A stretch of 64,000 nucleotides of DNA from Candidatus Nomurabacteria bacterium (GCA_026396015.1 JAPLXP010000011.1:15897-79896), one strand, 5' to 3'; shown: positions 9,418-27,249, numbered from the stretch's first letter. Made by a program: numbers and translations. The notes: generated by a model from the letters alone, not told the origin.

Positions 9418-9602
9418 CGTACCAATGGGAACGCTACTTCGCCTCAGGTAGAGCCGATCTTACTCACGAAATGGTGCAAGCAGTTATCTGTAGAGAAATG
9501 AAATGGACATATGAAGAATATCTTGAATGTCCGAGTTGGTTTATAGACATGATACTCGACATGCTTCAGTCCGAAGCGAGAGCAAATAACAAAGACAAAT
9601 AA
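9085..9602 (+). CDS. tail assembly chaperone -1 frameshift fusion product (gpGT-like). Made of 9085..9402 joined in the -1 frame to 9402..9602.
   Basis: Hand translation of the -1 frame after the slip: NRGEVTYQWERYFASGRADLTHEMVQ...ARANNKDK*. This matches the conserved G/GT arrangement of tailed phages. Confidence 0.5.
9396..9402 (+). promoter_or_regulatory. -1 programmed ribosomal frameshift slippery site A_AAT_TTA
   Basis: The heptamer AAATTTA lies in the 0 frame of the chaperone ORF as A AAT TTA. The -1 frame stays open for another 66 codons, to the TAA at 9600-9602, 2 nt before the tape-measure ATG. Confidence 0.6.
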
Positions 9603-9604
9603 TT

Positions 9605-11008: not shown

Positions 11009-12495
11009 TAATCCTTAAAATAAATGGTACAGATAGGTCTTCACTTATTGAAAGAGACACTCTGCAAATAGACCAGATACTCACATCACAGGCAGACACG
11101 GCTGTCTTTAAGTATCGTAAATATGGAAGTAGAACCTTGGTCCCTGCAGTCGGCGATGACATAGGCATATACCAAAACACAACGAAGATATTCGGTGGCA
11201 CGATAACCTCAATAAAAGAGACAGAAATAAACTCAGCCGACGGACTACTCTATGAAGTGAGTGCTGTTGATTACACGTTTCTTCTTGATAGTAAATTGGT
11301 GAGCGAAACATATGCCAACCAAACTGTCGCATACATCATAAATGACATTCTCACGAAATATACTTCAGGTTTTACCTCAGTGAACGCATCAAGCACTTTC
11401 ACGATCACAAAAATTGTGTTCAATCAGATTCCAGCGAGTCAATGTATCAAACGTCTTGCGGATGTACTTCGTTATGACTGGTATATAGACGAAAATAAAG
11501 ACGTTCACTTTTTCTCAAAATTCACCAACAGTGCTCCCTATGATCTCACTGATACAAGTGGCAACTACGTCAACCAATCTCTTGAGCGTCAGATTGATGG
11601 CACGCAACTTGCTAACACGGTAAAGGTTCGTGGCGGTGAATATGACGGCGCGACATACACCGACAAAATTACAGTAAAAGGAAGCAACACAAAATCATTT
11701 CTACTCCCTTATAGGTTTTCAAATCTTGTGATCACTTTGAATGCTGTGAGTAAAACAGTAGGTATTGATAACATCGATGACTTCTCGACAAAAGATGTCC
11801 TGTATAACTTTGCCGAAAAAACAATCAGGTGGAATGCCGTACTTACCGATGGCGATCTCATCCAGTATTCGGGTAACCCAAAAATACCAGTCCTTGCAAT
11901 TGCGAGCGATCCCGCTTCGATAGCTCTCTATGGTGCAAAAGAAAAGTTGATACGCGATACAAGCATCCAAGACCTTACTGTTGCCCGTAAACGAGCCTCT
12001 GCTGAGGTGGATACATACAAAGATGCAATCAATCAAGGAACTTTCGAGACATACACAGCGGGCTTGCGTACAGGCATGGTTATAAACATTACGAGTACAC
12101 GCAGAAACATAAATACAGATTTCATTATAAGCAAAGTCACATTCAAGGCTCGAACTCTCAATGATTTTACATACTCTGTTGATCTTGTAACAACCAGACA
12201 ATTCGGTCTCATAGAACTTTTACAACAGCTCTTATTACCAGATCCTCGACAAGCTGATGATACGGAAGTAGCCGAAACCATAAAGACTGATACTGCTGAA
12301 GTGACGATTGATGAACTTATTTCCGTACTCTCTCCCTATCAAGATTTTGTAGTAGTCACTATTGCAGAAAACATTCTCAATGATCCGCTCGGCGCAGGTA
12401 TAGAGCCGACGTGGGTACTTGGTAATTACACACCGACAGCTCAGACAGATACCAAGCGCATGGGTCGTTTAGATTATTCGTTAAAAGTTTATTAA
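11005..12495 (+). CDS. distal tail / tail tip component
   Basis: 496-aa ORF overlapping the tape-measure stop by 4 nt. Confidence 0.5.
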   Translation: MIILKINGTDRSSLIERDTLQIDQILTSQADTAVFKYRKYGSRTLVPAVGDDIGIYQNTTKIFGGTITSIKETEINSADGLLYEVSAVDYTFLLDSKLVSETYANQTVAYIINDILTKYTSGFTSVNASSTFTITKIVFNQIPASQCIKRLADVLRYDWYIDENKDVHFFSKFTNSAPYDLTDTSGNYVNQSLERQIDGTQLANTVKVRGGEYDGATYTDKITVKGSNTKSFLLPYRFSNLVITLNAVSKTVGIDNIDDFSTKDVLYNFAEKTIRWNAVLTDGDLIQYSGNPKIPVLAIASDPASIALYGAKEKLIRDTSIQDLTVARKRASAEVDTYKDAINQGTFETYTAGLRTGMVINITSTRRNINTDFIISKVTFKARTLNDFTYSVDLVTTRQFGLIELLQQLLLPDPRQADDTEVAETIKTDTAEVTIDELISVLSPYQDFVVVTIAENILNDPLGAGIEPTWVLGNYTPTAQTDTKRMGRLDYSLKVY

Positions 12496-12501
12496 ACATA
12501 T

Positions 12502-13053
12502 ATGAATTTAAAAAGTGAAATGACAATCAAAGTAAACATAGACACGTTCGTTCTCGCAGAATGGGTGAGTGAAGTAGGGAAAGAAATAGCGATGCTTCGT
12601 GAATATGTGAAGACAGGTAAAAAAAGTATTTTGTCTGTTCTCAGAAAGACCGGAGCGCTTATCAAGCATTCACATCGACACAACTTGATCACCACTGCGG
12701 GGAGAACGGTACTCGCTCGCAGAATTGCAGGAAATACTACATACACAGGCGCAATCAATTATGGATTACTCGGTATGCAAGCAAGTCCGGTCCCTGCGAA
12801 TAGCAGTACACAACTTGGCACTGAAGTCTTTCGTAAACTTGCCGCAAGTCAAACATTCGATAACAACATCGCGTATGTAGATTTTTTCTACACAGCCGGC
12901 GATACAAACGGAACATATACAGAGTTTGGAAATGTGATTGATGGGACAGCAACTGTAAACACCGGGCAGTTGTTTTCTTACGTCGCAACTGGTGGTTGGG
13001 TGAAGTCGAACGCCCAGAGTCTTTTTGTCAGCTGTAAATATACCGTAAGTTAA
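12502..13053 (+). CDS. tail-associated hypothetical protein
   Basis: 183-aa ORF in the tail module. Confidence 0.45.
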   Translation: MNLKSEMTIKVNIDTFVLAEWVSEVGKEIAMLREYVKTGKKSILSVLRKTGALIKHSHRHNLITTAGRTVLARRIAGNTTYTGAINYGLLGMQASPVPANSSTQLGTEVFRKLAASQTFDNNIAYVDFFYTAGDTNGTYTEFGNVIDGTATVNTGQLFSYVATGGWVKSNAQSLFVSCKYTVS

Positions 13054-13054
13054 T

Positions 13055-14179
13055 ATGAAAACTTGGAACGCAGGCGAGATTGTTCTCGCATCAGATTTGA
13101 ATGGAAATTTTATAGAAGCTAGACAGTTTCTATTTGGAGATGGTTCTGACGGTGATGTTACGATTTCAAGTAACACAGGATTGTCTCGAGATATGTACTA
13201 CAACAACCTGACTATTCAGACAGGCGTTGTTTTGAATTCAGCAGGATATAAAATTCACGTCAAAGCAACTCTTACTCAGCAAGGTACAGGCAAGATTGGT
13301 AGATCAGGAAATAATGCAAGCACTGGAAATACAGGTGGAAGCGCAAACAATGGATCAGGAAATAACTCTGTCGCAGGTGGAGCAGGTGGCTCTGGTGTCG
13401 GAGACGGAACACTCAAAGGGTCCGCAGCAGGAAAAAATGGAGCAAGTAGTGGAGGTGGGGGTGGAAATGGAAGTGGTGGATCATCTGGCAGTGCTGGCAC
13501 AACTGGCGATGCAAAATCATCCTGTATTGGAAGTAACGGTGCCGGTGGTGGCAATGGGGGTAACGGTGGCAATGCTACAAACTACGGTGGTGGGGGCGGA
13601 GGTGGTGCAAGCTCGGGAGGTACTGCAACAGGTGCAACCACAAAGCCTCGCAATCTTGTAAACGCCGAATTGATGGTGGATTTTGTGCTTGGAGTAGCAA
13701 CTCCCTATGAAGCAAATGCGGGTAGTGGCTCAGGTGGTGGAGGTGGAGGAGGCGGGGGATTCAATACTGGCCAACCACAATGGAACTATGGCGCAGCCGG
13801 AGGTGGAGGTGGTGGATCTGGATCACACGCTGGGAACTTCTTCATTGCTGCAAAAAATATCGTGATGAGTGGAAGCGGTAATCTTTTTGAATTCATCGGA
13901 GGCGTTGGAGGTAATGGTGGAAATGGGGGAAACGCTGCCGGTGCGACTGGCTCAGTTGGAGGTGCCGGCGGAGGTGGTGGAGCAGGTGCGGGAGGCAATG
14001 GAGGTTCAGGTGTTCTTATTTACGAATCACTCACTGGGACGCTTGCGTACTCACTTGCAGGTGGAGCAGCAGGAACAGTCGGATCAAGTGGCTCTCCTTC
14101 TGCCGGAGGTGGAGCGGGAGCTAACGGTGCCGCAGGTTCTGTCGGAAATGCAGGCACACTTTATACATTTAGTGTTTAA
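13055..14179 (+). CDS. glycine-rich tail fibre / receptor-binding protein with GGNGGN-type low-complexity repeats
   Basis: 374 aa. A conserved N-terminal segment (MKTWNAGEIVLASDLNGNF) is followed by long GGxGG tracts. GC-rich repeats generate spurious ORFs on both strands. Confidence 0.6.
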   Translation: MKTWNAGEIVLASDLNGNFIEARQFLFGDGSDGDVTISSNTGLSRDMYYNNLTIQTGVVLNSAGYKIHVKATLTQQGTGKIGRSGNNASTGNTGGSANNGSGNNSVAGGAGGSGVGDGTLKGSAAGKNGASSGGGGGNGSGGSSGSAGTTGDAKSSCIGSNGAGGGNGGNGGNATNYGGGGGGGASSGGTATGATTKPRNLVNAELMVDFVLGVATPYEANAGSGSGGGGGGGGGFNTGQPQWNYGAAGGGGGGSGSHAGNFFIAAKNIVMSGSGNLFEFIGGVGGNGGNGGNAAGATGSVGGAGGGGGAGAGGNGGSGVLIYESLTGTLAYSLAGGAAGTVGSSGSPSAGGGAGANGAAGSVGNAGTLYTFSV

Positions 14180-14184
14180 AAATT

Positions 14185-14616
14185 ATGGAATCACAAACAT
14201 ACGAAATCAAATGTTCAAAATGCGAAAAAATAGTAGGTCAAAGCTCAATCGAGAATCACAACGGTTTTATTTGTCAGACCTGTGATGACGAAACTCAACT
14301 GACAAATGCTCTTGCGGATGGGAAAAATTATGATCCAACAAATCTTGTGGATGAACGTCCAGAAAAATTTCAAGAAATAATCAAGAAAGCATTGTTTCAA
14401 AATCCATCTGCTTTGCTTTCTCTTAACTTCCATGAAGTCATCGAAGATGCAAAGAAAGAAATTCAAACAACCCTAGGGTTAGATGAACTTGATCATGCAC
14501 AAAAGGTCGAGCTTCTGCAAAAGATTGGAGATGAGGGTGATATCGTCGAAATGAGCGATCAGGATTTAAAAAATAAAGTGGACGTTGAAAAGAAAATACT
14601 TTCTGAGAAAAAATGA
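14185..14616 (+). CDS. zinc-ribbon protein (CxxC...CxxC)
   Basis: 143 aa. It reads CSKCEKIVGQ...FICQTCDDE in the N-terminus and has an acidic C-terminus. It lies between the fibre and holin genes. Confidence 0.45.
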   Translation: MESQTYEIKCSKCEKIVGQSSIENHNGFICQTCDDETQLTNALADGKNYDPTNLVDERPEKFQEIIKKALFQNPSALLSLNFHEVIEDAKKEIQTTLGLDELDHAQKVELLQKIGDEGDIVEMSDQDLKNKVDVEKKILSEKK

Positions 14617-14879
14617 ACCCCGAACAATTCGAACAACTTCAAATAACCATTTCAAAACAGATTGAAATTACTGTTAATGGAAAAATCGACAATCTAAATA
14701 AGAAGGTCGACGACTACATCAAATCTGACAATGAGTGGAAGGATCGCGCCCAGCCAACAATAGAGCTCGGGACGAATGTTCGAGGATTCGGAAAGGTCTT
14801 TGCGTATCTCATAGGAACTGCGGCGGCGGTCGGAGGACTGTTCGCCTTGTTTGAGAGCTTATTCAAAGGCAAAAATTAA
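14613..14879 (+). CDS. putative holin
   Basis: 88 aa. It has a C-terminal hydrophobic helix (VFAYLIGTAAAVGGLFALFESLF), overlaps the upstream gene by 4 nt, and lies directly upstream of the amidase. Confidence 0.45.
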   Translation: MNPEQFEQLQITISKQIEITVNGKIDNLNKKVDDYIKSDNEWKDRAQPTIELGTNVRGFGKVFAYLIGTAAAVGGLFALFESLFKGKN

Positions 14880-14908
14880 AAGATTAATAAAAATAAGTTA
14901 AAAAATAT

Positions 14909-15514
14909 ATGAATATACCATTTACACAAACACCCAACTACGCAACAGGTCCCACTAAGAAGTTAGTTGTAGTGCTCCATCTCACTCTCGGTGCATATAA
15001 CGGAGCTGTCTCATGGCTCTGTAATGGCAACAGACCAAACAGAACTTCTGCCCATTATGTCATTGGAAGAAATGAGGGCGAGAACATTCAACTTGTCAAA
15101 AACACTGACATCGCATGGCACGCCGGTAATGTCAGCAATCCAAATGACAGAGCTAAAAAAGTCATGCTGAAAAATCTTGACGGAACGTACGTGAATCCGA
15201 ATCAATACTGCATCGGCATTGAACTCGCAGCCGGATATGACGTGGATCAAGATGGCACAGTCGAGCCAAATGAAAGTGATATCACAGAATGGCAATACAA
15301 AGCACTCGCAGAGCTGGTGCAATCATTATCAGCAGATGTATCGCTTGGATTTATACTCGATGAAAAAAATATCATTATTCATGGCGACATTGCCGACTAC
15401 AAAGAAAAGCCAGAGATCGTTCGCACCAATCTTCTTGCTCGCCTATTTCCAAATAGACAACCGAGCAAGGACTCAATAAAATCACAAATTATTAGCCTCA
15501 TAAATCAACTTTAA
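14909..15514 (+). CDS. N-acetylmuramoyl-L-alanine amidase (amidase_2/PGRP-type endolysin)
   Basis: 201 aa. It reads AHYVIGRNEGENIQLVKNTDIAWHAGN, characteristic of the T7-lysozyme-like amidase_2 fold. Confidence 0.75.
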   Translation: MNIPFTQTPNYATGPTKKLVVVLHLTLGAYNGAVSWLCNGNRPNRTSAHYVIGRNEGENIQLVKNTDIAWHAGNVSNPNDRAKKVMLKNLDGTYVNPNQYCIGIELAAGYDVDQDGTVEPNESDITEWQYKALAELVQSLSADVSLGFILDEKNIIIHGDIADYKEKPEIVRTNLLARLFPNRQPSKDSIKSQIISLINQL

Positions 15515-15776: not shown

Positions 15777-16841
15777 ATGAACGATCACACAGACAAATTT
15801 GATAAGAGAATTAAAAGCCCAGAGCCACATATTGTGGCTATTTTGGCTGAAATTGACGGCATAAGAGGGGAATTCAAGTCAGGACTTCGTATGACACCAC
15901 AAGCGATAACCAGCCTCAAAAAGTCTGTTTTGGTGACTTCAGCCGGAGCGTCTACTCGTATCGAGGGGTCAAAATTAAACGACGAGGAGGTGCAAGAAAT
16001 TCTCAGTAAACTTTCAATCTCAAAATTCTCCGATCGTGATTCGCAAGAAGTACAGGGTTACCTCGAGACATTACAAAATGTATTCGACAGCTACCAAGCA
16101 TTGCCACTTCGTGAAGGTGTGATTACTTCACTTCATAATGAATTGATGAAGTATTCCGACAAAGATAAACTCCACAAAGGGAGCTATAAAAAACAGGAAA
16201 ATCTTGTTGGTGTTGCCAATGACAAAGGTGAAGTAACTAAAATTATATTCGAAACTACACCTGCGTGGCTTGCACCGAAGGAAATGACTGAGATTGTTGA
16301 TTGGTCATTTGATGCATTAGAGAAAAATAGATTCCATCCACTGCTTGTCATCGCAAATTTCCTCGTGGAGTTTTTGAAGATTCACCCATTCCAAGATGGA
16401 AACGGTCGTATGTCTCGTGTCCTCACGAACATGCTTCTTTTGCGATCAGGATACCAATTCGTAGAGTACGTCTCACATGAGCAGATTGTTGAGCGAAGAA
16501 AAGATGAATACTATCTTGCACTCCGAAAATCTCAAGAATCGTTCAAAACAGAACACGATACCATCGCACCATGGCTTAATTACTTCCTATCAGTAGTGAA
16601 GGAGCAGGCAACAAAAGCACTCGTATACCTTGAAGAAGAAAAGTTCGAAGATGTACTATCACCAAAACAATACGAAGTATGGAAGTACCTCTCGGGTGTC
16701 GGTGAAGCAAGTCCGGCAGAAATTACCAAAGAGACCGGTATTCTTATTGCAACGGTCAGACAATCACTCCTGCGATTAATGGAGCTAGGTAAGGTAAAAC
16801 GTACCGGTCGAGGTCCGCAAACTAGATATGTAAAAATATAA
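15777..16841 (+). CDS. class II Fic-domain AMPylator with N-terminal autoinhibitory helix and C-terminal winged HTH
   Basis: 354 aa. The Fic motif HPFQDGNGR is present. The upstream inhibitory motif STRIEG fits (S/T)xxxE(G/N). The C-terminal wHTH reads ATVRQSLLRLMELGKV. Confidence 0.85.
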   Translation: MNDHTDKFDKRIKSPEPHIVAILAEIDGIRGEFKSGLRMTPQAITSLKKSVLVTSAGASTRIEGSKLNDEEVQEILSKLSISKFSDRDSQEVQGYLETLQNVFDSYQALPLREGVITSLHNELMKYSDKDKLHKGSYKKQENLVGVANDKGEVTKIIFETTPAWLAPKEMTEIVDWSFDALEKNRFHPLLVIANFLVEFLKIHPFQDGNGRMSRVLTNMLLLRSGYQFVEYVSHEQIVERRKDEYYLALRKSQESFKTEHDTIAPWLNYFLSVVKEQATKALVYLEEEKFEDVLSPKQYEVWKYLSGVGEASPAEITKETGILIATVRQSLLRLMELGKVKRTGRGPQTRYVKI

Positions 16842-16845
16842 ATTT

Positions 16846-19107
16846 ATGGCACTACCAGATAACGAAAAACGAGACATTATAAAATACATTGAAGCCGACA
16901 AGCCATTGCCGGATAAATACCGCTTTCAACTTTTTGAAGATAAGCGTGAAGTTGAGCTTGTGTGGAATGGAAAAACAAATGATGTCACAAATGTCGTTCT
17001 CCCTTTTCAAATCATTGAGCAGATTGATGAGCCAAGAAGTGAGAAAGAAATAAAACTCCAAGCAACACTTTTTGATATTGATACTCGTGGCCGACAACTA
17101 AAAGGTTGGACGAATAAACTTATCTGGGGTGACAACAAATTGATTCTTTCAAGCCTCAAGAATGGTCCACTTCGACAAGAAATTGAGGAGCAAGGAGGTA
17201 TCAAGCTAATTTATATAGATCCACCTTTTGACGTAGGTGCTGATTTTTCAATGGATATAGAAATCGGGGACGAAGCTTTTACAAAACAACCATCGGTACT
17301 AGAAGAACTTGCTTATCGTGATACGTGGGGTAAGGGAGCTGATAGCTTTATCGCTATGATTTATGAACGTCTTCTATTAATGAGAGATCTCTTAGCACCT
17401 GAAGGAAGTATATTTGTGCATTGCGACACTCGCGTGAATAGTTACATACGCTTAGTCTTAGAGGAAATTTTTGGTAACGATAATTTTCACAACGAAATTG
17501 TCTGGCAAAGGAGTTCTAGTGGTAAAACCATTTCAAAAAATCTTTCAAGAGATACAGATACGATATTTTGGTACTCAAAATCTAATGACTACATAATAAA
17601 TTCGGTTTACCAGCCTCTCTCCGATACCACCATTGCCATGTACAGCATGGATGATAAAGATGGTAGAGGAAAATATCGTTTATACCCACTTCAAAAAACA
17701 GGAAGCCCGGGACCAGAAACAACATATGAATACGAAGATAATACCGGCAAAATGTGGAAGTGTCCTAAAAAAGGATGGAGGATGAGATTTCAAAAACTAA
17801 AAGCTTTGGAAAATGACGGAAGACTCTATTTTGAGGGCAATACTTTAGCTGAGAAAGCATACTGGAATGAGCGTGAAAATGAAGGAAGACTAGCTAATAA
17901 TTTATGGAATGATATATCTAATTTACAAGGATCTACTCCAGAGATTCTTGGTTATCCTACCCAAAAACCAGAGAAATTGTTGGAAAGAATTATTACCATG
18001 TCAACAAATAAGGACGATTTAGTGGCAGATTTTTTCTGTGGATCTGGTACTACACTAGCTGTTGCTGAAAAACTTGGACGTAAATGGATAGGATCTGACC
18101 TTGGTAAATTTGGAATCCATACTACTCGTAAGCGTATGATTGGAGTGCAACGCCAACTTAAAAAGGAAGACAAAAATTATCGAGCATTTGAAATTCTTAA
18201 TCTTGGTAAGTATGAGCGTCAACATTATATTGGTGTAAATACGAATCTTCGAGAAGAAGAAAAACAAAAACAGCTTGCTCAAAAAGAAAAAGATTTTGTA
18301 TCTCTCGTTTTATCAGCTTATAAGGCTGAGGAATGTGAAGGATTCAAAACTTTCTACGGAAAAAAGAATTCTCGACTAGTCGCAATTGGTCCTATAAATT
18401 TACCCCTTTCACGACTCTTTGTGGAAGAAGTGATAAAAGAATGCCAAGAAAAGCAGATCACAAAAGTTGATATTCTCGCTTTTGAATTTGAGATGGGCTT
18501 GTTTCCAAATATTCAGGAAGAAGCAAAAGACAAAGGTATTGATTTAGGACTTAAATACATACCTAGAGACGTTTTTGATAAGCGAGCAATCGAAAAGAAT
18601 CAAGTAGTTTTCAATGATGTTTCTTATATTGAAGTTAAACCAATTGTTAAGAAACGATCGGTAGCAATTGAGCTAGTTGATTTTTCTGTTTTTTATAACC
18701 AAGATTCCCTAAAAGAAGTTGAGGAAAACTTAAAAGCCGGTGGCAAAAAGCTTTTAATTGAAAATGGACAAATCATTAAAATTTCTAAAGATAAAGATGG
18801 TATTCTTGAGCGAGAAATTTTAACCAAGAAATGGACTGATTGGATCGATTATTGGGCCATTGACTTCAACTTTGAAAGTAAAAAGGAAATAATCGGCATT
18901 AAAGATAAAAGTGGGGAAGTGCAAGAATTCTGGACTGGTGACTATGTCTTTGAGAATGAATGGCAATCTTTTCGTACAAAAAAAGATCGCGGTTTAGAGA
19001 TGATAAGCATCGCGCGAGAATTGGAATCAGGTAAAAGAAAAATTGCAATCAAGGTCGTCGACATATTCGGTAACGATACGATGAAAATCATCGAGATCAC
19101 AGTATAA
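16846..19107 (+). CDS. mod: type III restriction-modification Mod subunit (N6-adenine DNA methyltransferase, beta-class motif order)
   Basis: 753 aa. Motif IV DPPF (IYIDPPFDV) precedes motif I FxGSGT (DFFCGSGTTLAVAE). There is a 4-bp gap to the res helicase gene. Confidence 0.8.
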   Translation: MALPDNEKRDIIKYIEADKPLPDKYRFQLFEDKREVELVWNGKTNDVTNVVLPFQIIEQIDEPRSEKEIKLQATLFDIDTRGRQLKGWTNKLIWGDNKLILSSLKNGPLRQEIEEQGGIKLIYIDPPFDVGADFSMDIEIGDEAFTKQPSVLEELAYRDTWGKGADSFIAMIYERLLLMRDLLAPEGSIFVHCDTRVNSYIRLVLEEIFGNDNFHNEIVWQRSSSGKTISKNLSRDTDTIFWYSKSNDYIINSVYQPLSDTTIAMYSMDDKDGRGKYRLYPLQKTGSPGPETTYEYEDNTGKMWKCPKKGWRMRFQKLKALENDGRLYFEGNTLAEKAYWNERENEGRLANNLWNDISNLQGSTPEILGYPTQKPEKLLERIITMSTNKDDLVADFFCGSGTTLAVAEKLGRKWIGSDLGKFGIHTTRKRMIGVQRQLKKEDKNYRAFEILNLGKYERQHYIGVNTNLREEEKQKQLAQKEKDFVSLVLSAYKAEECEGFKTFYGKKNSRLVAIGPINLPLSRLFVEEVIKECQEKQITKVDILAFEFEMGLFPNIQEEAKDKGIDLGLKYIPRDVFDKRAIEKNQVVFNDVSYIEVKPIVKKRSVAIELVDFSVFYNQDSLKEVEENLKAGGKKLLIENGQIIKISKDKDGILEREILTKKWTDWIDYWAIDFNFESKKEIIGIKDKSGEVQEFWTGDYVFENEWQSFRTKKDRGLEMISIARELESGKRKIAIKVVDIFGNDTMKIIEITV

Positions 19108-19111
19108 ATTT

Positions 19112-21793
19112 ATGGCACTCCATCAAAAATTTCCAAAATCTCCGTATACTATTCTTGATCCAGCAATTCGCTGGTTTCCTGCTGATGAAAATCTTAGAGA
19201 CAAGGGCTACGAAAAATTACTTCCGCCGCTTGTAGCAGAACTTCGAAAGAAGATAAAAGAGTGGCGTCTTTCTGAATACGAAGGAGCTAGTGAAACTAGT
19301 AAAGCACTTTTGAAATGGTGGTTCTTAACAGACCATCCAACTCCAACTAAAGATGGTGAGATGTTTCTTTTTCAATACTATTTTGCTCAACGTGAAGCAG
19401 TAGAAACTGTTATCTGGCTATATGAAGTAGCTAAAGCTCATGATAAATATGATCTTATACGTTTTGATACATCAGGAGCAATATCACCGGGAATGTTTGA
19501 CGAGACTTGGACTCGGTATATCGTGAAGATGGCAACTGGTTCAGGAAAAACAAAAGTATTGAGTCTTATTCTCGCATGGAGTTATTTTCATAAACTCTAC
19601 GAAAAAGATTCCGAGCTTGCTCGTAACTTTTTAGTAATCGCCCCAAACATCATTGTATTGGATCGAATACGTACAGACTTTGATGGTCTTAAAATTTTCT
19701 TTGCCGATCCAGTTGTTCCAGACAATGGATACCGAGGTCAAGAATGGCGTAACGACTTTCAACTTACTCTTCATATTCAAGATGAAATCGGAACTGTAAG
19801 AAAAACGGGTAATATTTTTCTTACCAACATTCACCGTGTTTATGATGGTGCTACAGAATCTGCTAGTTTTGAAGATGGAGATACGATGGACTACTTTCTT
19901 GGTAAAAAGCCCACAGGTGCAACCAATGAATCGAAATTAGATCTTGGAGATATTGTACGCAACATTGATGAGCTTGTTGTCTTAAATGATGAAGCACACC
20001 ATATTCACGATCCGAGACTTGCATGGTTCAAGGCTATTGAAGATATTCATAACCGCCTTAAAATGAAGGGGGGTAAGTTAGGTTTGCAAGTAGATGTTAC
20101 AGCAACTCCAAAACATACCAATGGATCAATCTTCGTTCAGACGGTTAGTGACTACCCACTTGTGGAAGCAATTCATCAAAACGTAGTGAAGCATCCGGTT
20201 CTGCCCGATCCAGCAAGTCGCGCAAAATTACAAGAACATAAGACATCAAATTACACTGAAAAATACAAGGATTACATCCACCTTGGATATTTGGAATGGA
20301 AAAAAGTCTATGATGAGCATCTTAAGCTAAATAAGAAATCGGTACTCTTTATCATGACTGACGATACAAAAAACTGTGACGAAGTGGCTGAATATCTTGA
20401 AAACACCTACCCCGATCTCAAAGATGCTGTTCTTGTGATTCACACAAAAGACAACGGTGAAATCTCAGAAAGTGCTACAGGGAAAAAAGAAGAGGAGCTC
20501 AAGGAACTCCGTAAAAATGCCAATACAATCGATCACCTCGACAATCCATATAAAGTTATTGTTTCCGTGCTTATGCTTAAAGAAGGATGGGATGTTAGAA
20601 ATGTGACTACGATTGTAGGCTTGCGCGCATACAGCTCCAAAAGCAACATCCTACCAGAGCAGACACTTGGTAGAGGTCTTCGTCGAATGTATCGCGATCC
20701 TGATCTAGCTGAAATGGTGAGCGTTGTCGGTACTGATGCCTTTATGGATTTCGTAGAATCAATTAAAAGTGAGGGTGTTGAACTTGAACATCGTAAAATG
20801 GGTGAAGGAACAGGTCCGAAAGCACCACTTGTAGTTGAAATTGACCGTGAGAATATGAAAAAGAATATTGAAGAATTGGAGATCGAGATACCTGTGCTGA
20901 CACCCCGTATCTATCGAGAATATAAAAATCTCTCCCAGCTCGATGTACCAAAATTTAGTCATCAAAAGATTAATACTAAAGAATTTACTGAGGAGGAAAA
21001 ACGTGAGATCGTCTTCCGAGATATAACAAGTGGCGACATAACACATAAAACGGAATTGGATAGTAATTTTATACCAAATTACCAGAGCGTGATTGGTTAT
21101 TTTACACAGGTAGTAATGAAGGAACTTAGACTGGTAAGTGGGTATGACGTTCTATATGGTAAGGTCAAAGAATTTATTCAAGATCATCTTTTTACAAAAC
21201 CTATTGAGCTTGAAAACTTAAACTCACTTCGTAATCTATCGGAAATAGAAGCTTCCCGTACTATTATTGAGACATTCAAAAAAGAGATTAATGCTCTTAC
21301 GGTCCTTGATAAAGGGGAGGCTGAGATCCGCGATTATATAAAAATCAGCAAGAGTCGTCCCTTTGTGGTAAAGGATCAGGGTTATATTGTTCCGAAAAAA
21401 AGTGTCTTTAATAAAATTATAGGTGACAGTCATTTAGAGCTTGAATTTGCGAGTTTTCTTGAGGGATGTGACGATATAATCTCATACGCAAAAAACTATT
21501 TTGCTGTTCACTTCAAGATTGATTATAAAAATGCTGACGGTAGTATTTCTGATTATTACCCAGATTTTATTGTAAAAGTCTCAGCCAAAGAATACTACGT
21601 AGTTGAGACGAAAGGTCGGGAAGATTTGGATGATATAGAGAAAATCAAACGCCTGAAACAGTGGTGTGATGATGTGAATGCAAATCAACGCGATGCAAAG
21701 TACAACATGCTTTATATCAAGCAGGAAGACTGGGAAGCACAGCAACAAAAGCCTCGAAACTTTAGAGAAGTCATTCGAGGATGGAGTAAATAA
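19112..21793 (+). CDS. res: type III restriction enzyme Res subunit (SF2 helicase + C-terminal PD-(D/E)XK nuclease)
   Basis: 893 aa. Walker A MATGSGKTKV, DEAH (LNDEAHH), and the C-terminal PDF...VETK endonuclease motif are present. Confidence 0.8.
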   Translation: MALHQKFPKSPYTILDPAIRWFPADENLRDKGYEKLLPPLVAELRKKIKEWRLSEYEGASETSKALLKWWFLTDHPTPTKDGEMFLFQYYFAQREAVETVIWLYEVAKAHDKYDLIRFDTSGAISPGMFDETWTRYIVKMATGSGKTKVLSLILAWSYFHKLYEKDSELARNFLVIAPNIIVLDRIRTDFDGLKIFFADPVVPDNGYRGQEWRNDFQLTLHIQDEIGTVRKTGNIFLTNIHRVYDGATESASFEDGDTMDYFLGKKPTGATNESKLDLGDIVRNIDELVVLNDEAHHIHDPRLAWFKAIEDIHNRLKMKGGKLGLQVDVTATPKHTNGSIFVQTVSDYPLVEAIHQNVVKHPVLPDPASRAKLQEHKTSNYTEKYKDYIHLGYLEWKKVYDEHLKLNKKSVLFIMTDDTKNCDEVAEYLENTYPDLKDAVLVIHTKDNGEISESATGKKEEELKELRKNANTIDHLDNPYKVIVSVLMLKEGWDVRNVTTIVGLRAYSSKSNILPEQTLGRGLRRMYRDPDLAEMVSVVGTDAFMDFVESIKSEGVELEHRKMGEGTGPKAPLVVEIDRENMKKNIEELEIEIPVLTPRIYREYKNLSQLDVPKFSHQKINTKEFTEEEKREIVFRDITSGDITHKTELDSNFIPNYQSVIGYFTQVVMKELRLVSGYDVLYGKVKEFIQDHLFTKPIELENLNSLRNLSEIEASRTIIETFKKEINALTVLDKGEAEIRDYIKISKSRPFVVKDQGYIVPKKSVFNKIIGDSHLELEFASFLEGCDDIISYAKNYFAVHFKIDYKNADGSISDYYPDFIVKVSAKEYYVVETKGREDLDDIEKIKRLKQWCDDVNANQRDAKYNMLYIKQEDWEAQQQKPRNFREVIRGWSK

Positions 21794-21795
21794 TA

Positions 21796-24590
21796 TGGAT
21801 AAAGGTACACACTTCTATAAATGCGATTTTCAGGTACATACTCCACGGGATGCAAACTGGGTAGGTACTGAAGCCACCACACAAGCAGAACGTAAAACTT
21901 ATGCAGAGGAGCTTATTCAGTCGTGTCGTATAAAAGGCATTGGAGCAATTGCAATAACCGACCATCACGATTTTACTTTTTTCCCTTATGTTAAAGCAGC
22001 TTCAGTTTCTGAAGTGGATGCGGTAGGAAGTCCTATTCCAAAACGAGATCAAATAGTTGTCTTTCCCGGCATCGAATTAACCCTTTCCTCGCCACCTTGC
22101 CAAGCCATTCTATTGTTAGATTCAGAATTTGATGAAACAAAATTCGGTGATATTCTCACAACCCTTACTATCGCTCCTACCGATAAGGTAAAAAGTAAAT
22201 TAGCAAGCGTAGATTCTGTATCACCAGCATCAATAACTGGATTTAATGACCTAGAGAATAAGCTTAATCAGCATGCATGGCTGAAAGGTAAATTTATCAT
22301 ACTTCCAAATGTTACTACTGCTGGACATAAAACACTTTTTCGTGATGGGTATGCAAAACACTATAAAGAGATGCGGTGTGTAGGAGGATATGTGGATGGC
22401 GATTATTCAAAATCAAGTGATGGCTATAAAAATATCCTAGAAGGTCGTCAACAAAATAATGGCTATAAATCCATTGCTGTTTTTCAGACCTCAGATAACC
22501 GCAAGCGTGATCATTCTGATCTTGGAACCTATATCACTTACGTTAAATGGTCAGAACCAACTGCTGAAGCGTTGCGACAGGCGTGCCTAGCAAAAGAATC
22601 ACGACTCTCTCTTGCTGAGCCAGAGCTTCCTAGCGTATGGATTACATCTGTCACAGTTTCAAATTCTAAGTTCCTTGGACGTGTTGATTTAGATTTAAAC
22701 CAACAATACAACGCCATCATCGGTGGGCGTGGAACTGGTAAATCCACAATCCTAGAATATTTACGCTGGGGTCTTTGTGATCAACCAATAGAAAGCGAGG
22801 ATATGGATATTGTACAAAATAAGCGCAAGAATTTAATCGATAATACGCTACAGAAATTTGATGGAGAAGTGCATGTTGAATTTCTTCTCAACGATGTGAA
22901 TCATATTGTAAAACGAAACTCAAAGAAACAAGAGATTTTGCTTAAAATTGCCGATGGAGATTTTGCTCCAGCTACTGAACAACAAGTAAGAAATTTGCTT
23001 CCAATTCAAGCGTACAGTCAGAAACAACTGAGTAGTGTTGGTGTGAGAATTGATGAGTTAAAACGCTTTGTAGAGCTTCCGATAAAACAAGAACTTGATC
23101 AGATTCGATCCGATGTTCGTGATAATGCTGCTAAAATGCGGTCATCATACGGTGATCTTATCCGAATGAGTGAGATCGAGACTGAAGTTGAAAAAAATAA
23201 TGTTGAAATTGCTTCAGTAACTGAGCAGCTTGATAAGTTAAGAAAAAGCCTCAAGGGTTTGTCTAAAGAAGATCAGAAGACCATCAACCAGAAAGCAAAA
23301 TACGATGAGGAAGAAACTATTATTGGTGATTTACAGAATGAACTCTCAACAGCACAAGGAAGTGTTGAGTCGTTAGAGGCAGAATTTTATAAAGATGTAG
23401 CGACACAAGAGGAAGAAGCTGAACTAGAAAACACGGCGATCATCAAAGATATCAAGAAAAAGTTTGCATCAAAGTTTGTGGAGATAAAAGCGGGGGTTGG
23501 AGCATTATCTAGCTTATTTAAACCAGCATCATTAAAAGATATAAATGATGCAATTAAGGCTTGGAATAAACTCAAGGTGGCGTTTGACAAAAAATACGAG
23601 GCGGCGAAAGTAAAAGCAAAAGTTAATCAGCAACAACTAGATCAAATACAAATACATGAAAAGCGTATCGGTATACTTAAGAAGCAACAAACCGATAAAC
23701 GTAATGCTATTACAGCTCTGGGAAATCCTGAGGCTACCTATAAAGGCTTACGTACAAAATGGGATACTTTACATAACCTAAAAGTTGTAGCCATTGAGAA
23801 ACAATGTGAGCAATTTACTGCTCTTTCTGGTGGATTGATTAAGGCGGAAATTAAAAATAGTCTTGATGTTGATGGTTTTACACAACAACTCAAAACAGCT
23901 TTTTCTGGTATGAATATCAAGGAGGATAAAATTGAAAAAATCTGTAAGATTTTGCTTGAAGCAACTGATCCGTTCACAGAATGGAATAACATATTATCAG
24001 AACTCAGATCCCTCGCTCTCTATTCTGATGAAGGAAATGATGCCTTACCAGAAACACCTATACTTAATGGTAAGTGTTTCTTTATTAATACAGAATTAAA
24101 GAGGATTGCGACCCAGTTTGATTCCGCTCGCTGGATTAATCTTTCCATGGCAGAATTGGAATTCAATCCAAAATTCCACTATTGCACAAATAAAACAAAG
24201 GATGAATACATAGAATTTTCTGATGCATCGGCTGGTCAACAAGCTACCGCCTTACTTACTGTACTTTTGAATCAGCCGGGAGCTCCTCTTATTATTGATC
24301 AACCAGAAGATGATATTGATAGTAAGATGATCAAAGAAATTATTGAACGAGTGTGGAAAGCAAAAAGTAAACGTCAACTTATCTTTGCCAGCCATAGTGC
24401 AAATTTTGTCGTCAACGGAGATGCAGAGCTGGTAGTTTGTTGCGACTACGTCAAAGCAGGAGATCAGACACACGGTGTAATTAAAGCAATTGGCGCAATT
24501 GATAATGCCATAATTAAAGAAGAAATTACCTTAGTTACTGAAGGCGGTCGACAAGCATTCAAGCTTCGTATGGATAAATATGGTTTTTAA
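21796..24590 (+). CDS. PHP-domain phosphoesterase fused to an SbcC/SMC-like coiled-coil ABC ATPase (Ppl-like candidate defence protein)
   Basis: Start reassigned to the ATG at 21796, because the track ORF start at 21678 overlaps res. PHP motifs are present: DFQVHTPRD, ITDHHDF and GIELT. Walker A reads IIGGRGTGKST. About 300 aa are coiled-coil. The signature SAGQQ, Walker B LIIDQPEDDID and H-loop FASHSAN follow. Confidence 0.7.
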
Positions 24591-24604
24591 TCTTAAATAA
24601 AGAT

Positions 24605-25357
24605 ATGTCTGAATACTACAACGCAAACAGAACACGAAACATTTACGATCCAGCCAGTTTGGAGCCTTTCAAGTTGTCACGGTCCAAGATCGAGGGGTAC
24701 ATGAACTGTCCAAAGTGCTTTTATATGGATCGTAGACTTGGCGTGGGGCAACCACCGGGCTTCCCATTTGCCCTTAATTCGGCCGTAGACCACCTTCTAA
24801 AGAAAGAATTCGACATACACAGGGCTAAGCAGGTCCCGCACCCGCTTATGAAGGCGTACGGCCTTGATATGGTCCCTTTTCAGCATGAAAAGCTGAATGA
24901 GTGGCGCGAGAATTTCAAAGGCATCCAGTACCACCACGAGCCTACAAATTTTATAATGACAGGAGCTGTTGATGACTTGTGGGTCAATAGGGAAGGGGAG
25001 GTCACTGTAGTTGACTATAAAGCTACAAGCAAACCAGCGAAGGTGACACTCGATGCTGATTGGCAGATCGGATACAAACGACAAATGGAAATGTACCAGT
25101 GGCTACTTCGCAAGATTGGATTGAAAGTTTCCGACACTGGATATTTTGTATACTGCAATGGAAAAACAGATCGTGAAGCGTTCGATGGAAAACTAGATTT
25201 TGATATTGATCTTCTTCCATACACTGGCGATGATTCATGGGTGGGTGGAATTTTACATGAAATAAAACAGTGTCTTGATGGTGACATGCCCGAGTCGGGT
25301 CTTTCATGTGATTATTGTAGTTACAGAAAAGCTGCAAATCTCGTTGATCGAAAATAA
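24605..25357 (+). CDS. Cas4/RecB-like PD-(D/E)XK nuclease with Cys clusters
   Basis: 250 aa. N-terminal CPKC; core GAVDD ... EVTVVDYK (D ... D/ExK); RecB-family QxxxY (YKRQMEMYQW); C-terminal CDYCSY. It starts 14 bp downstream of the PHP-ATPase gene. Confidence 0.7.
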   Translation: MSEYYNANRTRNIYDPASLEPFKLSRSKIEGYMNCPKCFYMDRRLGVGQPPGFPFALNSAVDHLLKKEFDIHRAKQVPHPLMKAYGLDMVPFQHEKLNEWRENFKGIQYHHEPTNFIMTGAVDDLWVNREGEVTVVDYKATSKPAKVTLDADWQIGYKRQMEMYQWLLRKIGLKVSDTGYFVYCNGKTDREAFDGKLDFDIDLLPYTGDDSWVGGILHEIKQCLDGDMPESGLSCDYCSYRKAANLVDRK

Positions 25358-25827: not shown

Positions 25828-26760
25828 ATGTTACTTCGAGATGCAATTGAAAATTATTTGCTCTGGAAGGGAACGGAGACTCGCACAGCCGCGAAAGTCT
25901 ACCGACCATTCCTCGAGCATTTCTACAGCTTTGTTGGTAATAAAGATACTCTCGAAATAAAGCTCGAGGAGATCTCAGCGTTCCGAGCGTCATTGAAATT
26001 AAAATACAATGATGGCAATATTTCCAACCACAACAATGTGATCAAGAACTTCTACAAATGGTTAGAAGCGAATCGTATAACTACGGTCCACCCATTCTTG
26101 ATCCGTAACCCAAGGTTCCAACAACCGGAACGACCAGTAGCAACACCTGAAGAAGTCGCGAAGATGTGCGCAACTCTCAATCCAAATTCTTATAGTGATT
26201 TGATGAGGCTTGTAGCAATCAAACTCATGTGGGAATCAATGATACGCGTTAGTGAGCTTATAGACCTAAATGTTAGCGACATACTGTCGCAAAATACATA
26301 CACGGAAATAATAGGCAAGAAGAATTATAAGAAACGATGGATTATGTGGTCGCCAGAAACCCATCAACTCCTACTTCAATATATAGCAAAGAGAAAAATG
26401 TTGTTCGAACACGAAGCATTATTCGCACACGAAAGTGCTGGTGTCAGTCAACGAATGGCTACTAGAAGTGTTGAACGATGGATGAAGATCGCGCGAGAAA
26501 AAGCAAAACTGACTCAAGACATATCTTGTCACGCATTGCGACATGGTGGTGCTCATGAGTTAGTAAAGAAAGGTGCGAGTCTGAAATTCTTAGGATTGAT
26601 TCTAGGACATTCAGATACGAACCCTCGAGCGGGAATGCAATACCTCCGATTCAGTAAAGAAGAATCACTAGATGTTGTGGAAAGATTTGTGGGACTTAGA
26701 TTCTCAAGAAATGTTTCCGAGCCTCTAGGTATAGCATTTAATGCCTACAACATGGTTTAA
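25828..26760 (+). CDS. int: tyrosine site-specific recombinase (phage integrase / XerD-like)
   Basis: 310 aa. The C-terminal catalytic region reads HALRHGGAHELV ... LGHSDTNPRAGMQYLR (H-x-x-R, LGH, Tyr). Confidence 0.85.
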   Translation: MLLRDAIENYLLWKGTETRTAAKVYRPFLEHFYSFVGNKDTLEIKLEEISAFRASLKLKYNDGNISNHNNVIKNFYKWLEANRITTVHPFLIRNPRFQQPERPVATPEEVAKMCATLNPNSYSDLMRLVAIKLMWESMIRVSELIDLNVSDILSQNTYTEIIGKKNYKKRWIMWSPETHQLLLQYIAKRKMLFEHEALFAHESAGVSQRMATRSVERWMKIAREKAKLTQDISCHALRHGGAHELVKKGASLKFLGLILGHSDTNPRAGMQYLRFSKEESLDVVERFVGLRFSRNVSEPLGIAFNAYNMV

Positions 26761-27164: not shown

Positions 27165-27177
27165 CGACACAGTGTCG
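27165..27177. promoter_or_regulatory. Perfect palindrome CGACAC-A-GTGTCG (operator-like). A second ACGACACT half-site and TATATAAT lie 15-25 bp downstream.
   Basis: Direct read of cgacacagtgtcg ... ttacgacactatataat. Confidence 0.35.
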
Positions 27178-27218
27178 CACAATATATCTTTTACGACACT
27201 ATATAATAAAATAAAGCG

Positions 27219-27249
27219 CAGGATATTGTGATGGGTATCCTGCGCCTAT
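27219..27249. terminator. hairpin GCGCAGGATA-loop-TATCCTGCGC (10-bp stem) at the element/host junction region
   Basis: Direct read; the T/A-rich flank is weak. Confidence 0.4.

What the first reader, a model, noticed from the sequence alone, without database searches (positions are those of the whole stretch)
21796..25357. Two-gene candidate anti-phage module: a PHP-phosphoesterase/SMC-like ATPase fusion plus a Cas4/RecB-like nuclease
Seen in sequence:
- The first gene encodes a 931-aa protein.
- Its N-terminus carries three PHP-domain motifs: DFQVHTPRD, ITDHHDF and GIELT.
- Next comes a Walker A motif (GGRGTGKST).
- A coiled-coil region of about 300 aa follows.
- The C-terminal lobe has the ABC signature (SAGQQ), Walker B/D-loop (LIIDQPEDDID) and H-loop (FASHSAN). 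This makes it a Rad50/SbcC-like ATPase head split by a coiled coil, in which the usual Mre11/SbcD phosphoesterase partner is replaced by a fused PHP domain.
- Fourteen bp downstream, on the same strand, lies a 250-aa PD-(D/E)XK nuclease. It carries the RecB-family QxxxY motif and N- and C-terminal Cys pairs, making it Cas4-like.

Established knowledge, stated from memory and not checked here: single-gene PHP+ATPase proteins were reported as the Ppl defence system (Gao et al. 2020). I do not recall a conserved two-gene PHP-SMC-ATPase + Cas4-like-nuclease operon having been described.

Inference: the location inside a prophage cargo island, next to type III R-M and Fic, suggests a phage-exclusion function. 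One possible mechanism is an SbcCD-like sensor of phage DNA ends or structures coupled to two nucleases.
Basis: partly seen in the sequence, partly recalled or inferred. Interest (0 to 1): 0.85.

Follow-up and report, generated by a model that had tools for sequence, protein, structure and literature searches.

The report
Ppl-like defence gene beside unrelated nuclease
The large gene is an ordinary member of a known family of single-gene, probably anti-phage nuclease-ATPases carried as cargo by a prophage, and the small nuclease next to it is a fixed prophage backbone gene, not its partner.

Summary
Both genes and all quoted motifs are real. Gene 1 is window 21795-24590 (931 aa; the stated start is one base off). 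Gene 2 is 24605-25357 (250 aa), 14 bp downstream.

Gene 1 is a full-length member of the curated NCBIfam family TrlF (473 bits, cutoff 350). TrlF is a sister of the validated single-gene defence protein Ppl. It has a PHP phosphoesterase fused to a Rad50/SMC-like ABC ATPase with a coiled coil of about 260 aa.

Gene 2 is an intact Cas4/RecB-type PD-(D/E)XK nuclease.

The window is a temperate prophage in a Candidatus Nomurabacteria (CPR) genome. The order is late genes, Fic, type III Mod-Res, TrlF, nuclease, integrase, then the host.

The two-gene module is not supported:
- Only 1 of 80 species-level TrlF loci has the nuclease.
- None of 80 metagenomic nuclease loci has TrlF.
- The closest nuclease copies (86-87% identical) follow other cargo: SIR2-HerA, CBASS or a type II R-M.
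- DNA homology shows TrlF moves as a one-gene cassette.

The nuclease marks the fixed right border of a variable defence-cargo hotspot.

TrlF recurs at the 3' end of R-M operons, which is the more plausible functional link.

Verdict: a new member of a known kind, of modest interest.

The parts
21795..24590 (+). TrlF-family protein, 931 aa: N-terminal PHP phosphoesterase fused to a Rad50/SMC-like ABC ATPase. It is a single-gene cargo cassette.
   Evidence: NCBIfam NF045780 scores 473 bits against a cutoff of 350 and covers aa 3-930. PADLOC Ppl gives 3e-41. blastn homology to L004, L007 and L023 runs exactly 21794 to 24600-24610.
21795..22640 (+). PHP domain, about aa 1-280. Motifs are D11-F-Q13-V-H15, D56-H57-H58, E94 and D234...H240.
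   Evidence: D56, E94 and D234 are invariant even in the most divergent family members. The first His of the canonical HxH motif is Gln in this clade.
22722..22748 (+). Walker A motif GGRGTGKST (aa 310-318).
   Evidence: It is invariant in the family.
23037..23825 (+). Coiled-coil insertion, about aa 415-677, with no zinc hook.
   Evidence: Helices in the AF2 model, with pLDDT mostly 70-90 in this stretch. There is no CxxC.
24228..24407 (+). C-terminal ATPase lobe: signature SAGQQ (aa 812), Walker B/D-loop LIIDQPEDDID (aa 832) and H-loop FASHSAN (aa 864).
   Evidence: Q836 sits where ABC ATPases have the catalytic Glu, and it is invariant.
24605..25357 (+). Solo Cas4/RecB-like PD-(D/E)XK nuclease, 250 aa. 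It is a conserved backbone gene at the right border of the cargo hotspot.
   Evidence: PDDEXK_1 1.1e-14. Invariant motifs and Cys residues. Predicted fold matches Cas4, AdnA nuclease, RecE, MGME1 and lambda Exo. Backbone homology with L087, L090, L091 and L093 resumes at 24595-24605.
16846..21793 (+). Type III restriction-modification system: Mod at 16846-19107 and Res at 19112-21793. It lies directly upstream of TrlF, with a 1-nt gap.
   Evidence: Pfam N6_N4_Mtase 1.4e-45 and ResIII 2.9e-14. PADLOC MTase_III 2.7e-113 and REase_III 1.8e-20.
15777..16841 (+). Fic-domain protein resembling SoFic. It is the first gene of the cargo region.
   Evidence: Pfam Fic 3e-14. PADLOC SoFic 2.5e-38. The NCBIfam SoFic score is far below its cutoff.
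24..15514 (+). Prophage late genes: portal, protease, major head, tail, tape measure and amidase endolysin.
   Evidence: PHROGs hits.
25828..26760 (+). Xer-like tyrosine recombinase, the prophage integrase.
   Evidence: Phage_integrase 6e-23. It scores below the XerC, XerD and XerA cutoffs. Copies 80-88% identical lie downstream of the nuclease in L087, L089, L090 and L093.
27171..27245 (.). Right end of the mobile element, the probable attR zone.
   Evidence: Homology to related elements stops at 27196-27203. The host-only contig L185 starts at 27171. The NCBI contig ends at about 27313. A hairpin lies at 27216-27245.

Best explanation
What the genes are:
- Gene 1 is a TrlF-family protein, a homologue of the single-gene anti-phage protein Ppl. 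Its parts are a PHP metal-dependent phosphoesterase, a bipartite Rad50/SMC-like ABC nucleotide-binding head, and a coiled coil of about 260 aa.
- It is carried as a self-contained one-gene cassette at the 3' end of a type III R-M operon.
- That operon lies inside the variable defence-cargo hotspot of a temperate phage integrated in a Candidatus Nomurabacteria genome.
- Gene 2 is a Cas4/RecB-like nuclease. It is not a partner of gene 1. It is a conserved backbone gene of this phage family, and more widely a common CPR gene. It forms the fixed right border of the hotspot, so whatever cargo is inserted last ends up next to it.

How it most likely works. This part is inferred from Ppl as summarised in PMC12904381 and from Xu et al. 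2026 Mol Cell (cited in PMC13434339). It is not shown here:
- The ATPase head and coiled coil bind DNA ends.
- Nucleotide occupancy keeps the PHP exonuclease off.
- During infection, NTP depletion together with free 3'-OH ends releases 3'-5' degradation of the invading DNA.
- The lysogen thereby gains superinfection exclusion.
- In this operon the free ends could be produced by the neighbouring type III enzyme.
For: Family membership:
- NF045780 TrlF scores 473 bits against a cutoff of 350 over the full length. The Ppl and Spaf_1101 models are hit at 1e-47 and 7e-43. PADLOC Ppl gives 3e-41.
- The family is large and has a uniform architecture. 2410 proteins have E<=1e-5 among the scored candidates. 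628 clusters at 50% identity have E<=1e-30.
- The PHP assignment is supported in 71 of 80 members.

Single-gene behaviour:
- In 80 loci from different species, no neighbour family occurs in more than 8 loci.
- No Pfam family occurs in more than 4 of 131 downstream ORFs.
- DNA homology with L004, L007 and L023 starts at 21794 and ends at 24600-24610.

Defence and mobile-element context:
- Upstream ORFs include ResIII 7, N6_Mtase 6, Eco57I 6, Methylase_S 4, HSDR_N 3 and GmrSD 3.
- At least 16 of 80 loci carry an R-M-like gene within 6 kb, and 14 of those are upstream on the same strand.
- Two plasmid examples show the same linkage.

The nuclease is independent of TrlF:
- It is present in 1 of 80 TrlF loci.
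- Nuclease copies 86-87% identical follow type III R-M plus SIR2-HerA (L087), type I R-M plus CBASS (L091), or MTase plus REase-like plus PDC-S19 (L090).
- Backbone homology resumes exactly at the nuclease start.
- More distant copies (65-69% identical) sit in a housekeeping synteny of DHH, cyclophilin and nuclease.
Against: - No experiment on any TrlF member shows anti-phage activity. The founding TrlF, from the Photorhabdus TRL operon, has no assigned role (PMC7554251).
- In this clade the PHP motif I is QxH rather than HxH, and the Walker B motif is DQ rather than DE. Catalytic competence is therefore assumed, not shown.
- The AlphaFold model of TrlF is poor in both the PHP and head domains: mean pLDDT 64.5.
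- TrlF and the nuclease are adjacent with tight spacing in four distinct elements: the window, L022, L095 and L096/L097. These include a divergent TrlF lineage. This is more often than pure chance would give.
- The 80 TrlF loci were retrieved with clade-specific peptide patterns. They therefore sample only relatives 42-80% identical.
Confidence: 0.78

Rival explanations
1. TrlF and the Cas4-like nuclease form a dedicated two-gene defence system, with an SbcCD-like end sensor coupled to two nucleases.
For: - The two genes share a strand, are 14 bp apart and have no terminator-like site between them.
- The adjacency recurs in L022, L095 and L096/L097. In the last of these the TrlF is very divergent: 500 bits to NF045780 but only a local 37% match to the window protein.
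Against: - The nuclease is present in 1 of 80 TrlF loci.
- TrlF is present in 0 of 80 metagenome nuclease loci.
- The closest nuclease relatives are joined just as tightly (4-5 bp) to HerA, DUF5655 and other cargo.
- 42 of 64 nuclease loci have a same-strand upstream ORF within 50 bp, whatever that ORF encodes.
- TrlF sits at the 3' end of R-M-like units. That alone places it next to the hotspot border.
Confidence: 0.07
2. TrlF is a functional accessory of the adjacent restriction-modification system, making Mod-Res-TrlF a three-gene unit. It would process or degrade the DNA ends produced by restriction.
For: - The gap between Res and TrlF is 1 nt.
- A non-orthologous type III Mod-Res precedes TrlF in L022, and the same holds in L044.
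- Plasmid pLB1 has a type III enzyme gene ending 8 bp before TrlF.
- A Citrobacter IncC plasmid has hsdM-hsdS-TrlF-x-hsdR.
- An SNF2/PLD plus type IIG methylase unit precedes TrlF in L096 and L024.
- At least 16 of 80 loci carry an R-M-like gene within 6 kb, and 14 of those are upstream on the same strand.
Against: - Most loci (64 of 80 by the blast-based lower bound) show no R-M gene within 6 kb.
- L004, L007 and L023 carry the cassette between a RadC-like gene and unrelated small genes.
- The linked R-M types differ (I, IIG-like, III), which fits defence-island clustering as well as it fits coupling.
Confidence: 0.2
3. The Cas4-like nuclease is a general-purpose accessory used by whichever defence system is inserted upstream of it in CPR phages, for example in end resection or clearing degraded DNA.
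For: - It sits tightly and co-directionally downstream of very different defence cargo: R-M types I, II and III, SIR2-HerA, CBASS, AAA_13 and TrlF.
- Its catalytic and Cys residues are invariant.
Against: - Many copies have housekeeping neighbours instead: cyclophilin 7, DHH 6, PCMT and peptidases.
- The family is enormous and restricted to CPR, as expected of a general repair or recombination nuclease.
- No defence system is known to need such a shared component.
Confidence: 0.1
4. Gene 1 is a housekeeping SbcC/Rad50/RecN-type repair paralogue with a coincidental PHP-like region.
For: Weak hits to Rad50 (NF003034, 30.7 bits) and SMC_N, plus coiled-coil matches to JetC and Smc.
Against: - The Rad50 score is far below its cutoff of 700.
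- There is no zinc hook and no Mre11/SbcD partner.
- The PHP region is conserved across the family.
- The distribution is patchy across phyla and lies on plasmids, prophages and islands with variable neighbours.
Confidence: 0.02

Closest known systems
TrlF family AAA-like ATPase (NCBIfam NF045780). The founder is trlF of the Photorhabdus laumondii temperature restriction locus (PMC7554251).
   Same: Full-length HMM match above the curated cutoff. Same length of about 930 aa. Same architecture of PHP, ABC ATPase and coiled coil.
   Different: - The founder lies in a trlR-trlF-trlG operon. No TrlG-like (AlbA_2/HATPase_c_4) or TrlR gene is present here, and TrlG is absent from 79 of 80 related loci.
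- The proteobacterial plasmid homologue examined here (Citrobacter IncC, 23-27% identical) has a more degenerate PHP motif I, ALQVN.
- No function was assigned to TrlF in that study.
Ppl, a single-gene anti-phage system (Gao et al. 2020, from memory). Its mechanism is given by Xu et al. 2026 Mol Cell, as cited in PMC13434339 and summarised in PMC12904381.
   Same: A PHP nuclease plus an NTPase in one polypeptide. It acts alone. Homology is clear at the HMM level: PADLOC 3e-41 and NCBIfam 1e-47.
   Different: The score of 162 bits is far below the Ppl equivalog cutoff of 1000, so this is a sister family and not Ppl. No activity data exist for it. It sits in a CPR prophage, often at the end of R-M operons.
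SbcCD / Mre11-Rad50
   Same: An ABC ATPase head split by an antiparallel coiled coil and combined with a metal-dependent phosphoesterase. Probable DNA-end recognition.
   Different: The nuclease is PHP rather than calcineurin-like, and it is fused rather than a separate subunit. The coil is much shorter and has no CxxC hook. Walker B is DQ rather than DE. The context is a mobile element rather than a repair locus.
Cas4 / solo Cas4-like RecB-family nucleases (for gene 2)
   Same: PD-(D/E)XK core with a QxxxY motif and conserved N- and C-terminal cysteines. The best fold match is type I-C Cas4, followed by AdnA nuclease, RecE, MGME1 and lambda Exo.
   Different: It scores below the cas4 model cutoff: 27.8 against 65. 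No array-like tandem repeat is present in the window. No cas genes turned up among the window ORFs that were scanned; that scan was partial.

Membership tests
TrlF family (NCBIfam NF045780) | Full-length match to the curated HMM above its cutoff | tested here: met
   473.1 bits against a cutoff of 350. Protein residues 3-930 align to model positions 1-944.
TrlF family (NCBIfam NF045780) | N-terminal PHP region plus a bipartite ABC ATPase with a coiled coil, about 930 aa in total | tested here: met
TRL operon of Photorhabdus (trlR-trlF-trlG) | Adjacent TrlG (AlbA_2 + HATPase_c_4) and a small regulator, TrlR | tested here: not met
   A TrlG-like query taken from the Citrobacter plasmid has no match in the window. 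It matches in 1 of 80 related loci.
TRL operon of Photorhabdus (trlR-trlF-trlG) | Growth restriction at raised temperature | not testable with these tools
   The phenotype is described in PMC7554251. The organism here is an uncultured CPR bacterium.
Ppl (anti-phage protein) | Match to the Ppl equivalog model above its cutoff | tested here: not met
   NF042955 scores 162.6 bits against a cutoff of 1000. The PADLOC Ppl hit of 3e-41 comes in 2 stretches, the best covering aa 798-927.
Ppl (anti-phage protein) | A single gene suffices, with no conserved partner | tested here: met
   No neighbour family occurs in more than 8 of 80 loci. The cassette boundaries lie at the ends of the gene.
Ppl (anti-phage protein) | NTP-inhibited 3'-5' ssDNA exonuclease activity and phage protection | not testable with these tools
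   This needs biochemistry and plaque assays.
SbcCD / Mre11-Rad50 | Zinc hook (CxxC) at the apex of the coiled coil | tested here: not met
   The protein contains no CxxC motif.
SbcCD / Mre11-Rad50 | Rad50/SbcC model match and an Mre11/SbcD partner | tested here: not met
   The Rad50 model NF003034 scores 30.7 bits against a cutoff of 700. No calcineurin-like phosphoesterase lies nearby.
Cas4 (gene 2) | RecB-type motifs D, (D/E)xK and QxxxY, plus a conserved Cys cluster | tested here: met
   D123/D124, D137-Y-K139, Q160xxxY164 and C35, C38, C223, C235, C238 are all invariant in 26 homologues. The predicted fold also agrees.
Cas4 (gene 2) | cas4 model above its cutoff, and a CRISPR-cas neighbourhood | tested here: not met
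   TIGR00372 scores 27.8 bits against a cutoff of 65. The window has no array-like repeat. No cas genes were found among the window ORFs scanned; the whole window was not scanned for them.
Proposed two-gene PHP-SMC + Cas4-like module | The two genes co-occur as a unit across genomes | tested here: not met
   The pair is found in 1 of 80 TrlF loci. TrlF is found in 0 of 80 metagenome nuclease loci and in 2 distinct viral loci.

The most novel reading that the evidence does not exclude
TrlF-family proteins may be recurrent 3'-terminal accessories of restriction-modification operons of types I, IIG-like and III. They would turn a restriction cut into processive 3'-5' destruction of the invader, acting as a built-in end-degrading module where RecBCD-type activity is missing, as it may be in CPR bacteria. 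Separately, the solo Cas4-like nuclease marks a conserved defence-cargo hotspot in a family of CPR temperate phages.
Probability: 0.2. Interest if true: 0.55.

Novelty: new member of a known kind. Interest (0 to 1): 0.3.

Why it matters
- It removes a false lead. The apparently new two-gene system is a known single-gene family placed next to a fixed backbone gene.
- It adds a CPR prophage example of stacked defence cargo: a SoFic-like Fic, a type III R-M and a Ppl-like TrlF.
- It defines a swap-in hotspot whose content can be mined for further defence genes in organisms that cannot be cultured.
- It points to an R-M/TrlF linkage that could be tested with cultivable homologues carried on plasmids.

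Tried and rejected
- **AlphaFold2 of full-length TrlF.** Run with an 18-sequence alignment, it gave mean pLDDT 64.5, with the PHP and head domains below 50. I did not use it for fold search.
- **PDB sequence and profile searches with TrlF.** These found only weak SMC/JetC coil or P-loop matches and no Ppl structure. The nuclease had no PDB sequence match.
- **Literature search for 'TrlF'.** It was swamped at first by TRLFS spectroscopy and by an unrelated tropolone-biosynthesis TrlF. 'TrlF family' gave nothing. The source of the name, the Photorhabdus TRL operon, came up.
- **The primary Ppl mechanism paper (PMID 41344330).** It is not held, so I used secondary citations.
- **Nuclease and recombinase as host genes flanking an insertion.** I considered this because the recombinase looks Xer-like. 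I rejected it for three reasons:
  - The recombinase scores far below the Xer cutoffs.
  - Homology with related elements continues to about 27.2 kb.
  - Two independent assemblies break at that point.
- **tRNA gene as att site.** None is present in the window.
- **CRISPR array.** None is present.
- **TrlG as the real partner.** It is absent.
- **Known phage genomes.** They contain only partial, distant matches to TrlF.
Full report
**1. Observation**

The ORF list and translations show two co-directional genes.
- Gene 1 runs 21795-24590 and encodes 931 aa. Its ATG lies one base before the coordinate given in the finding and one base after the stop of the upstream gene.
- Gene 2 runs 24605-25357 and encodes 250 aa, 14 bp downstream.

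- Pfam finds the ABC-ATPase parts of gene 1 (AAA_21, SMC_N, AAA_23) and PDDEXK_1 in gene 2 at 1.1e-14.
- The PHP domain is below the Pfam threshold in this one protein, at 18 bits. Across the family it is secure. 71 of 80 family N-termini match PHP at E<=0.01, and no other family recurs.
- The coiled coil spans about aa 415-677 in the AlphaFold model. It has no CxxC hook.

**2. Where the window comes from**

A protein 100% identical to gene 1 is annotated in a Candidatus Nomurabacteria MAG (GCA_026396755.1).

The layout of the window is:
- Positions 24-15514 encode phage portal, protease, major head, tail, tape-measure and amidase proteins.
- Next come a SoFic-like Fic protein, a type III Mod and Res, gene 1, gene 2, a 51-aa acidic ORF and a Xer-like tyrosine recombinase. 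The gaps between the first five genes are 4, 4, 1 and 14 bp.
- From about 27.3 kb the genes are host core genes, including DnaK, DnaJ, GrpE and RpoA.

The right end of the element lies at about 27.17-27.20 kb. Three results place it there:
- Homology with related elements stops at 27196-27203.
- A host-only contig begins at 27171.
- The NCBI contig ends near 27313.

The 'prophage cargo island' context is therefore correct, and both genes lie inside the element.

**3. What gene 1 is**

It matches NCBIfam NF045780, 'TrlF family AAA-like ATPase', over its full length above the curated cutoff: 473 bits against 350. It also hits the sister models Ppl (162 bits, cutoff 1000) and Spaf_1101 (147 bits, cutoff 475). 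PADLOC's Ppl model is hit at 3e-41.

Gene 1 is thus a homologue of Ppl but not a Ppl equivalog.

The family is large and uniform in architecture:
- 2410 proteins have E<=1e-5 among the scored candidates.
- 628 clusters at 50% identity have E<=1e-30, nearly all about 930 aa long.
- 228 stretches occur in species-representative genomes across many bacterial and some archaeal phyla.
- Homologues occur on plasmids.

The name comes from the temperature restriction locus of Photorhabdus laumondii, trlR-trlF-trlG. In that study only trlG mutations gave a phenotype, and TrlF had no assigned role (PMC7554251). No TrlG-like gene is present here or in 79 of 80 related loci.

Two sequence details are worth noting:
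- In this clade the canonical PHP HxH motif is QxH. D56/H57, E94 and D234 are conserved across the most divergent members.
- The residue after the Walker B Asp is an invariant Gln rather than the catalytic Glu.

**4. Is the pair a unit?**

*From the TrlF side.*
- Of 80 loci from different species (TrlF 42-80% identical), only L022 has the nuclease, by both tblastn and a family HMM.
- No neighbour cluster occurs in more than 8 loci.
- No Pfam family occurs in more than 4 of 131 downstream ORFs.
- In IMG/VR the clade appears on two contigs, one with the nuclease and one without.

*From the nuclease side.*
- The family is huge and restricted to CPR. At least 8000 proteins match, and at least 589 metagenome stretches.
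- None of the 80 metagenome loci has TrlF. Of the 13 viral loci, L095 and L096/L097 do.
- The nuclease copies most similar to the window's (86-87% identical) follow quite different cargo, with equally tight spacing:
  - L087: type III R-M plus SIR2 plus HerA.
  - L091: type I R-M plus CBASS cyclase plus a 2TM effector.
  - L090: C5-methylase plus REase-like plus PDC-S19.
- Copies 65-69% identical lie in a housekeeping synteny of sigma factor, DHH phosphoesterase, cyclophilin, nuclease and response regulator.

*DNA level.*
- Homology between the window and L087, L090, L091 and L093 covers the short stretch after the endolysin gene (15534-15694, extending through Fic in L091).
- It then breaks and resumes at 24595-24605, the start of the nuclease.
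- It runs on through the recombinase to about 27.2 kb.
- Homology with L004, L007 and L023 covers exactly 21794 to 24600-24610, that is, TrlF alone.

Two conclusions follow:
- TrlF is a one-gene cassette.
- The nuclease is the fixed right border of a variable cargo hotspot that spans about 15.7-24.6 kb.

**5. Why TrlF and the nuclease still meet four times**

In every element that has both genes, TrlF is the last gene of an R-M-like unit:
- type III Mod-Res-TrlF in the window;
- a non-orthologous type III Mod-Res-TrlF in L022;
- SNF2/PLD plus type IIG methylase plus TrlF in L096.

The same 3'-terminal position next to R-M genes recurs away from the nuclease:
- L044, L024, L042, L043, L050 and L073;
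- plasmid pLB1, where a type III enzyme gene ends 8 bp before TrlF;
- a Citrobacter IncC plasmid, where TrlF lies inside a type I operon.

Among the two nearest upstream ORFs of the 80 loci, the commonest Pfam families are R-M domains. At least 16 of 80 loci have an R-M-like gene within 6 kb, and 14 of those are upstream on the same strand.

This satisfies the defence-island test. It also makes an R-M link more plausible than a nuclease link. Most loci lack any R-M gene, however, so the link is not obligate.

**6. Gene 2**

Its catalytic residues (D123/D124, D137-x-K139, Q160xxxY164) and five cysteines are invariant in 26 homologues.

A fairly confident model (pLDDT 80.7) matches, in order, type I-C Cas4, the AdnA nuclease domain, RecE, MGME1, lambda exonuclease and Exo5.

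It scores below the cas4 model cutoff, and the window has no CRISPR array. No cas genes appeared among the ORFs scanned.

It is best described as a solo Cas4/RecB-like exonuclease, probably acting in recombination or end processing. Its specific role was not tested here.

**7. Mechanism**

*Shown here:* family membership, domain content, conservation of the putative metal ligands and nucleotide-binding motifs, single-gene mobility, and the defence and mobile-element context.

*Inferred from Ppl* (summarised in PMC12904381; Xu et al. 2026 Mol Cell, cited in PMC13434339):
- The PHP domain is a 3'-5' ssDNA exonuclease held inactive by bound NTPs.
- It is released by NTP depletion together with 3'-OH DNA ends.
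- Carried on a prophage, this would exclude superinfecting phages.
- Ends made by the neighbouring type III enzyme are a possible trigger. This last point is speculation.

**8. Verdict**

Gene 1 is a new member of a known kind, the TrlF family related to Ppl. The two-gene system is not real as a conserved unit.

Two by-products are modestly interesting: the cargo hotspot in CPR phages and the recurrent placement of TrlF at the end of R-M operons.

**Caveats**
- The TrlF locus sample was drawn with clade-specific peptide patterns.
- Neighbour ORFs were called with a simple script.
- Pfam neighbour counts are aggregates.
- Nothing here is experimental.

Noticed in passing
window 15534-24604; also L087, L090, L091, L022, L095: A family of CPR temperate phages has a variable defence-cargo hotspot between the lysis module and the Cas4-like nuclease. 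Contents seen: SoFic-like Fic plus type III R-M plus TrlF in the window; type III R-M plus SIR2-HerA; type I R-M plus CBASS; C5-MTase plus REase-like plus PDC-S19.
   Followed up: partly
window 27171-27245: This is the probable attR and right end of the prophage. Homology to related elements stops at 27196-27203. A host-only contig starts at 27171, and the NCBI contig ends at about 27313. A 12-bp-stem hairpin lies at 27216-27245. The window contains no tRNA gene.
   Followed up: partly
window 24605-25357; L120, L129, L151, L157, L161, L166: The solo Cas4-like nuclease family is very large and appears restricted to CPR bacteria. Copies 65-69% identical lie in a conserved housekeeping synteny of ECF sigma factor, DHH phosphoesterase, cyclophilin, nuclease and response regulator. 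The phage copies therefore look like captured host genes, or the reverse.
   Followed up: partly
window 24288-24320 (aa 832-842 of gene 1): The Walker B region reads IIDQPEDD. An invariant Gln sits where ABC ATPases carry the catalytic Glu, in all TrlF members examined here. This suggests nucleotide sensing rather than fast hydrolysis.
   Followed up: no
window 16846-24590; L022, L044, L096, L024, L183 (pLB1), L184 (IncC plasmid): TrlF genes recur as the last gene of R-M or R-M-like operons, or inside them. The operon types are III, I and SNF2/PLD plus IIG methylase. In the Citrobacter IncC plasmid, a TrlG-like gene follows TrlF inside hsdM-hsdS-...-hsdR.
   Followed up: partly
window 25365-25520: A 51-aa highly acidic ORF lies directly after the nuclease. 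Its DNA is conserved (80-86%) in L087, L090 and L091. About 300 bp of non-coding sequence follow before the recombinase gene.
   Followed up: no
L004, L007, L023: In three other CPR genomes, the TrlF cassette (80% identical at protein level) sits in the order Fic, RadC-like 165 aa, TrlF, 144 aa, thioredoxin-like lipoprotein. There is neither an R-M system nor the nuclease.
   Followed up: partly
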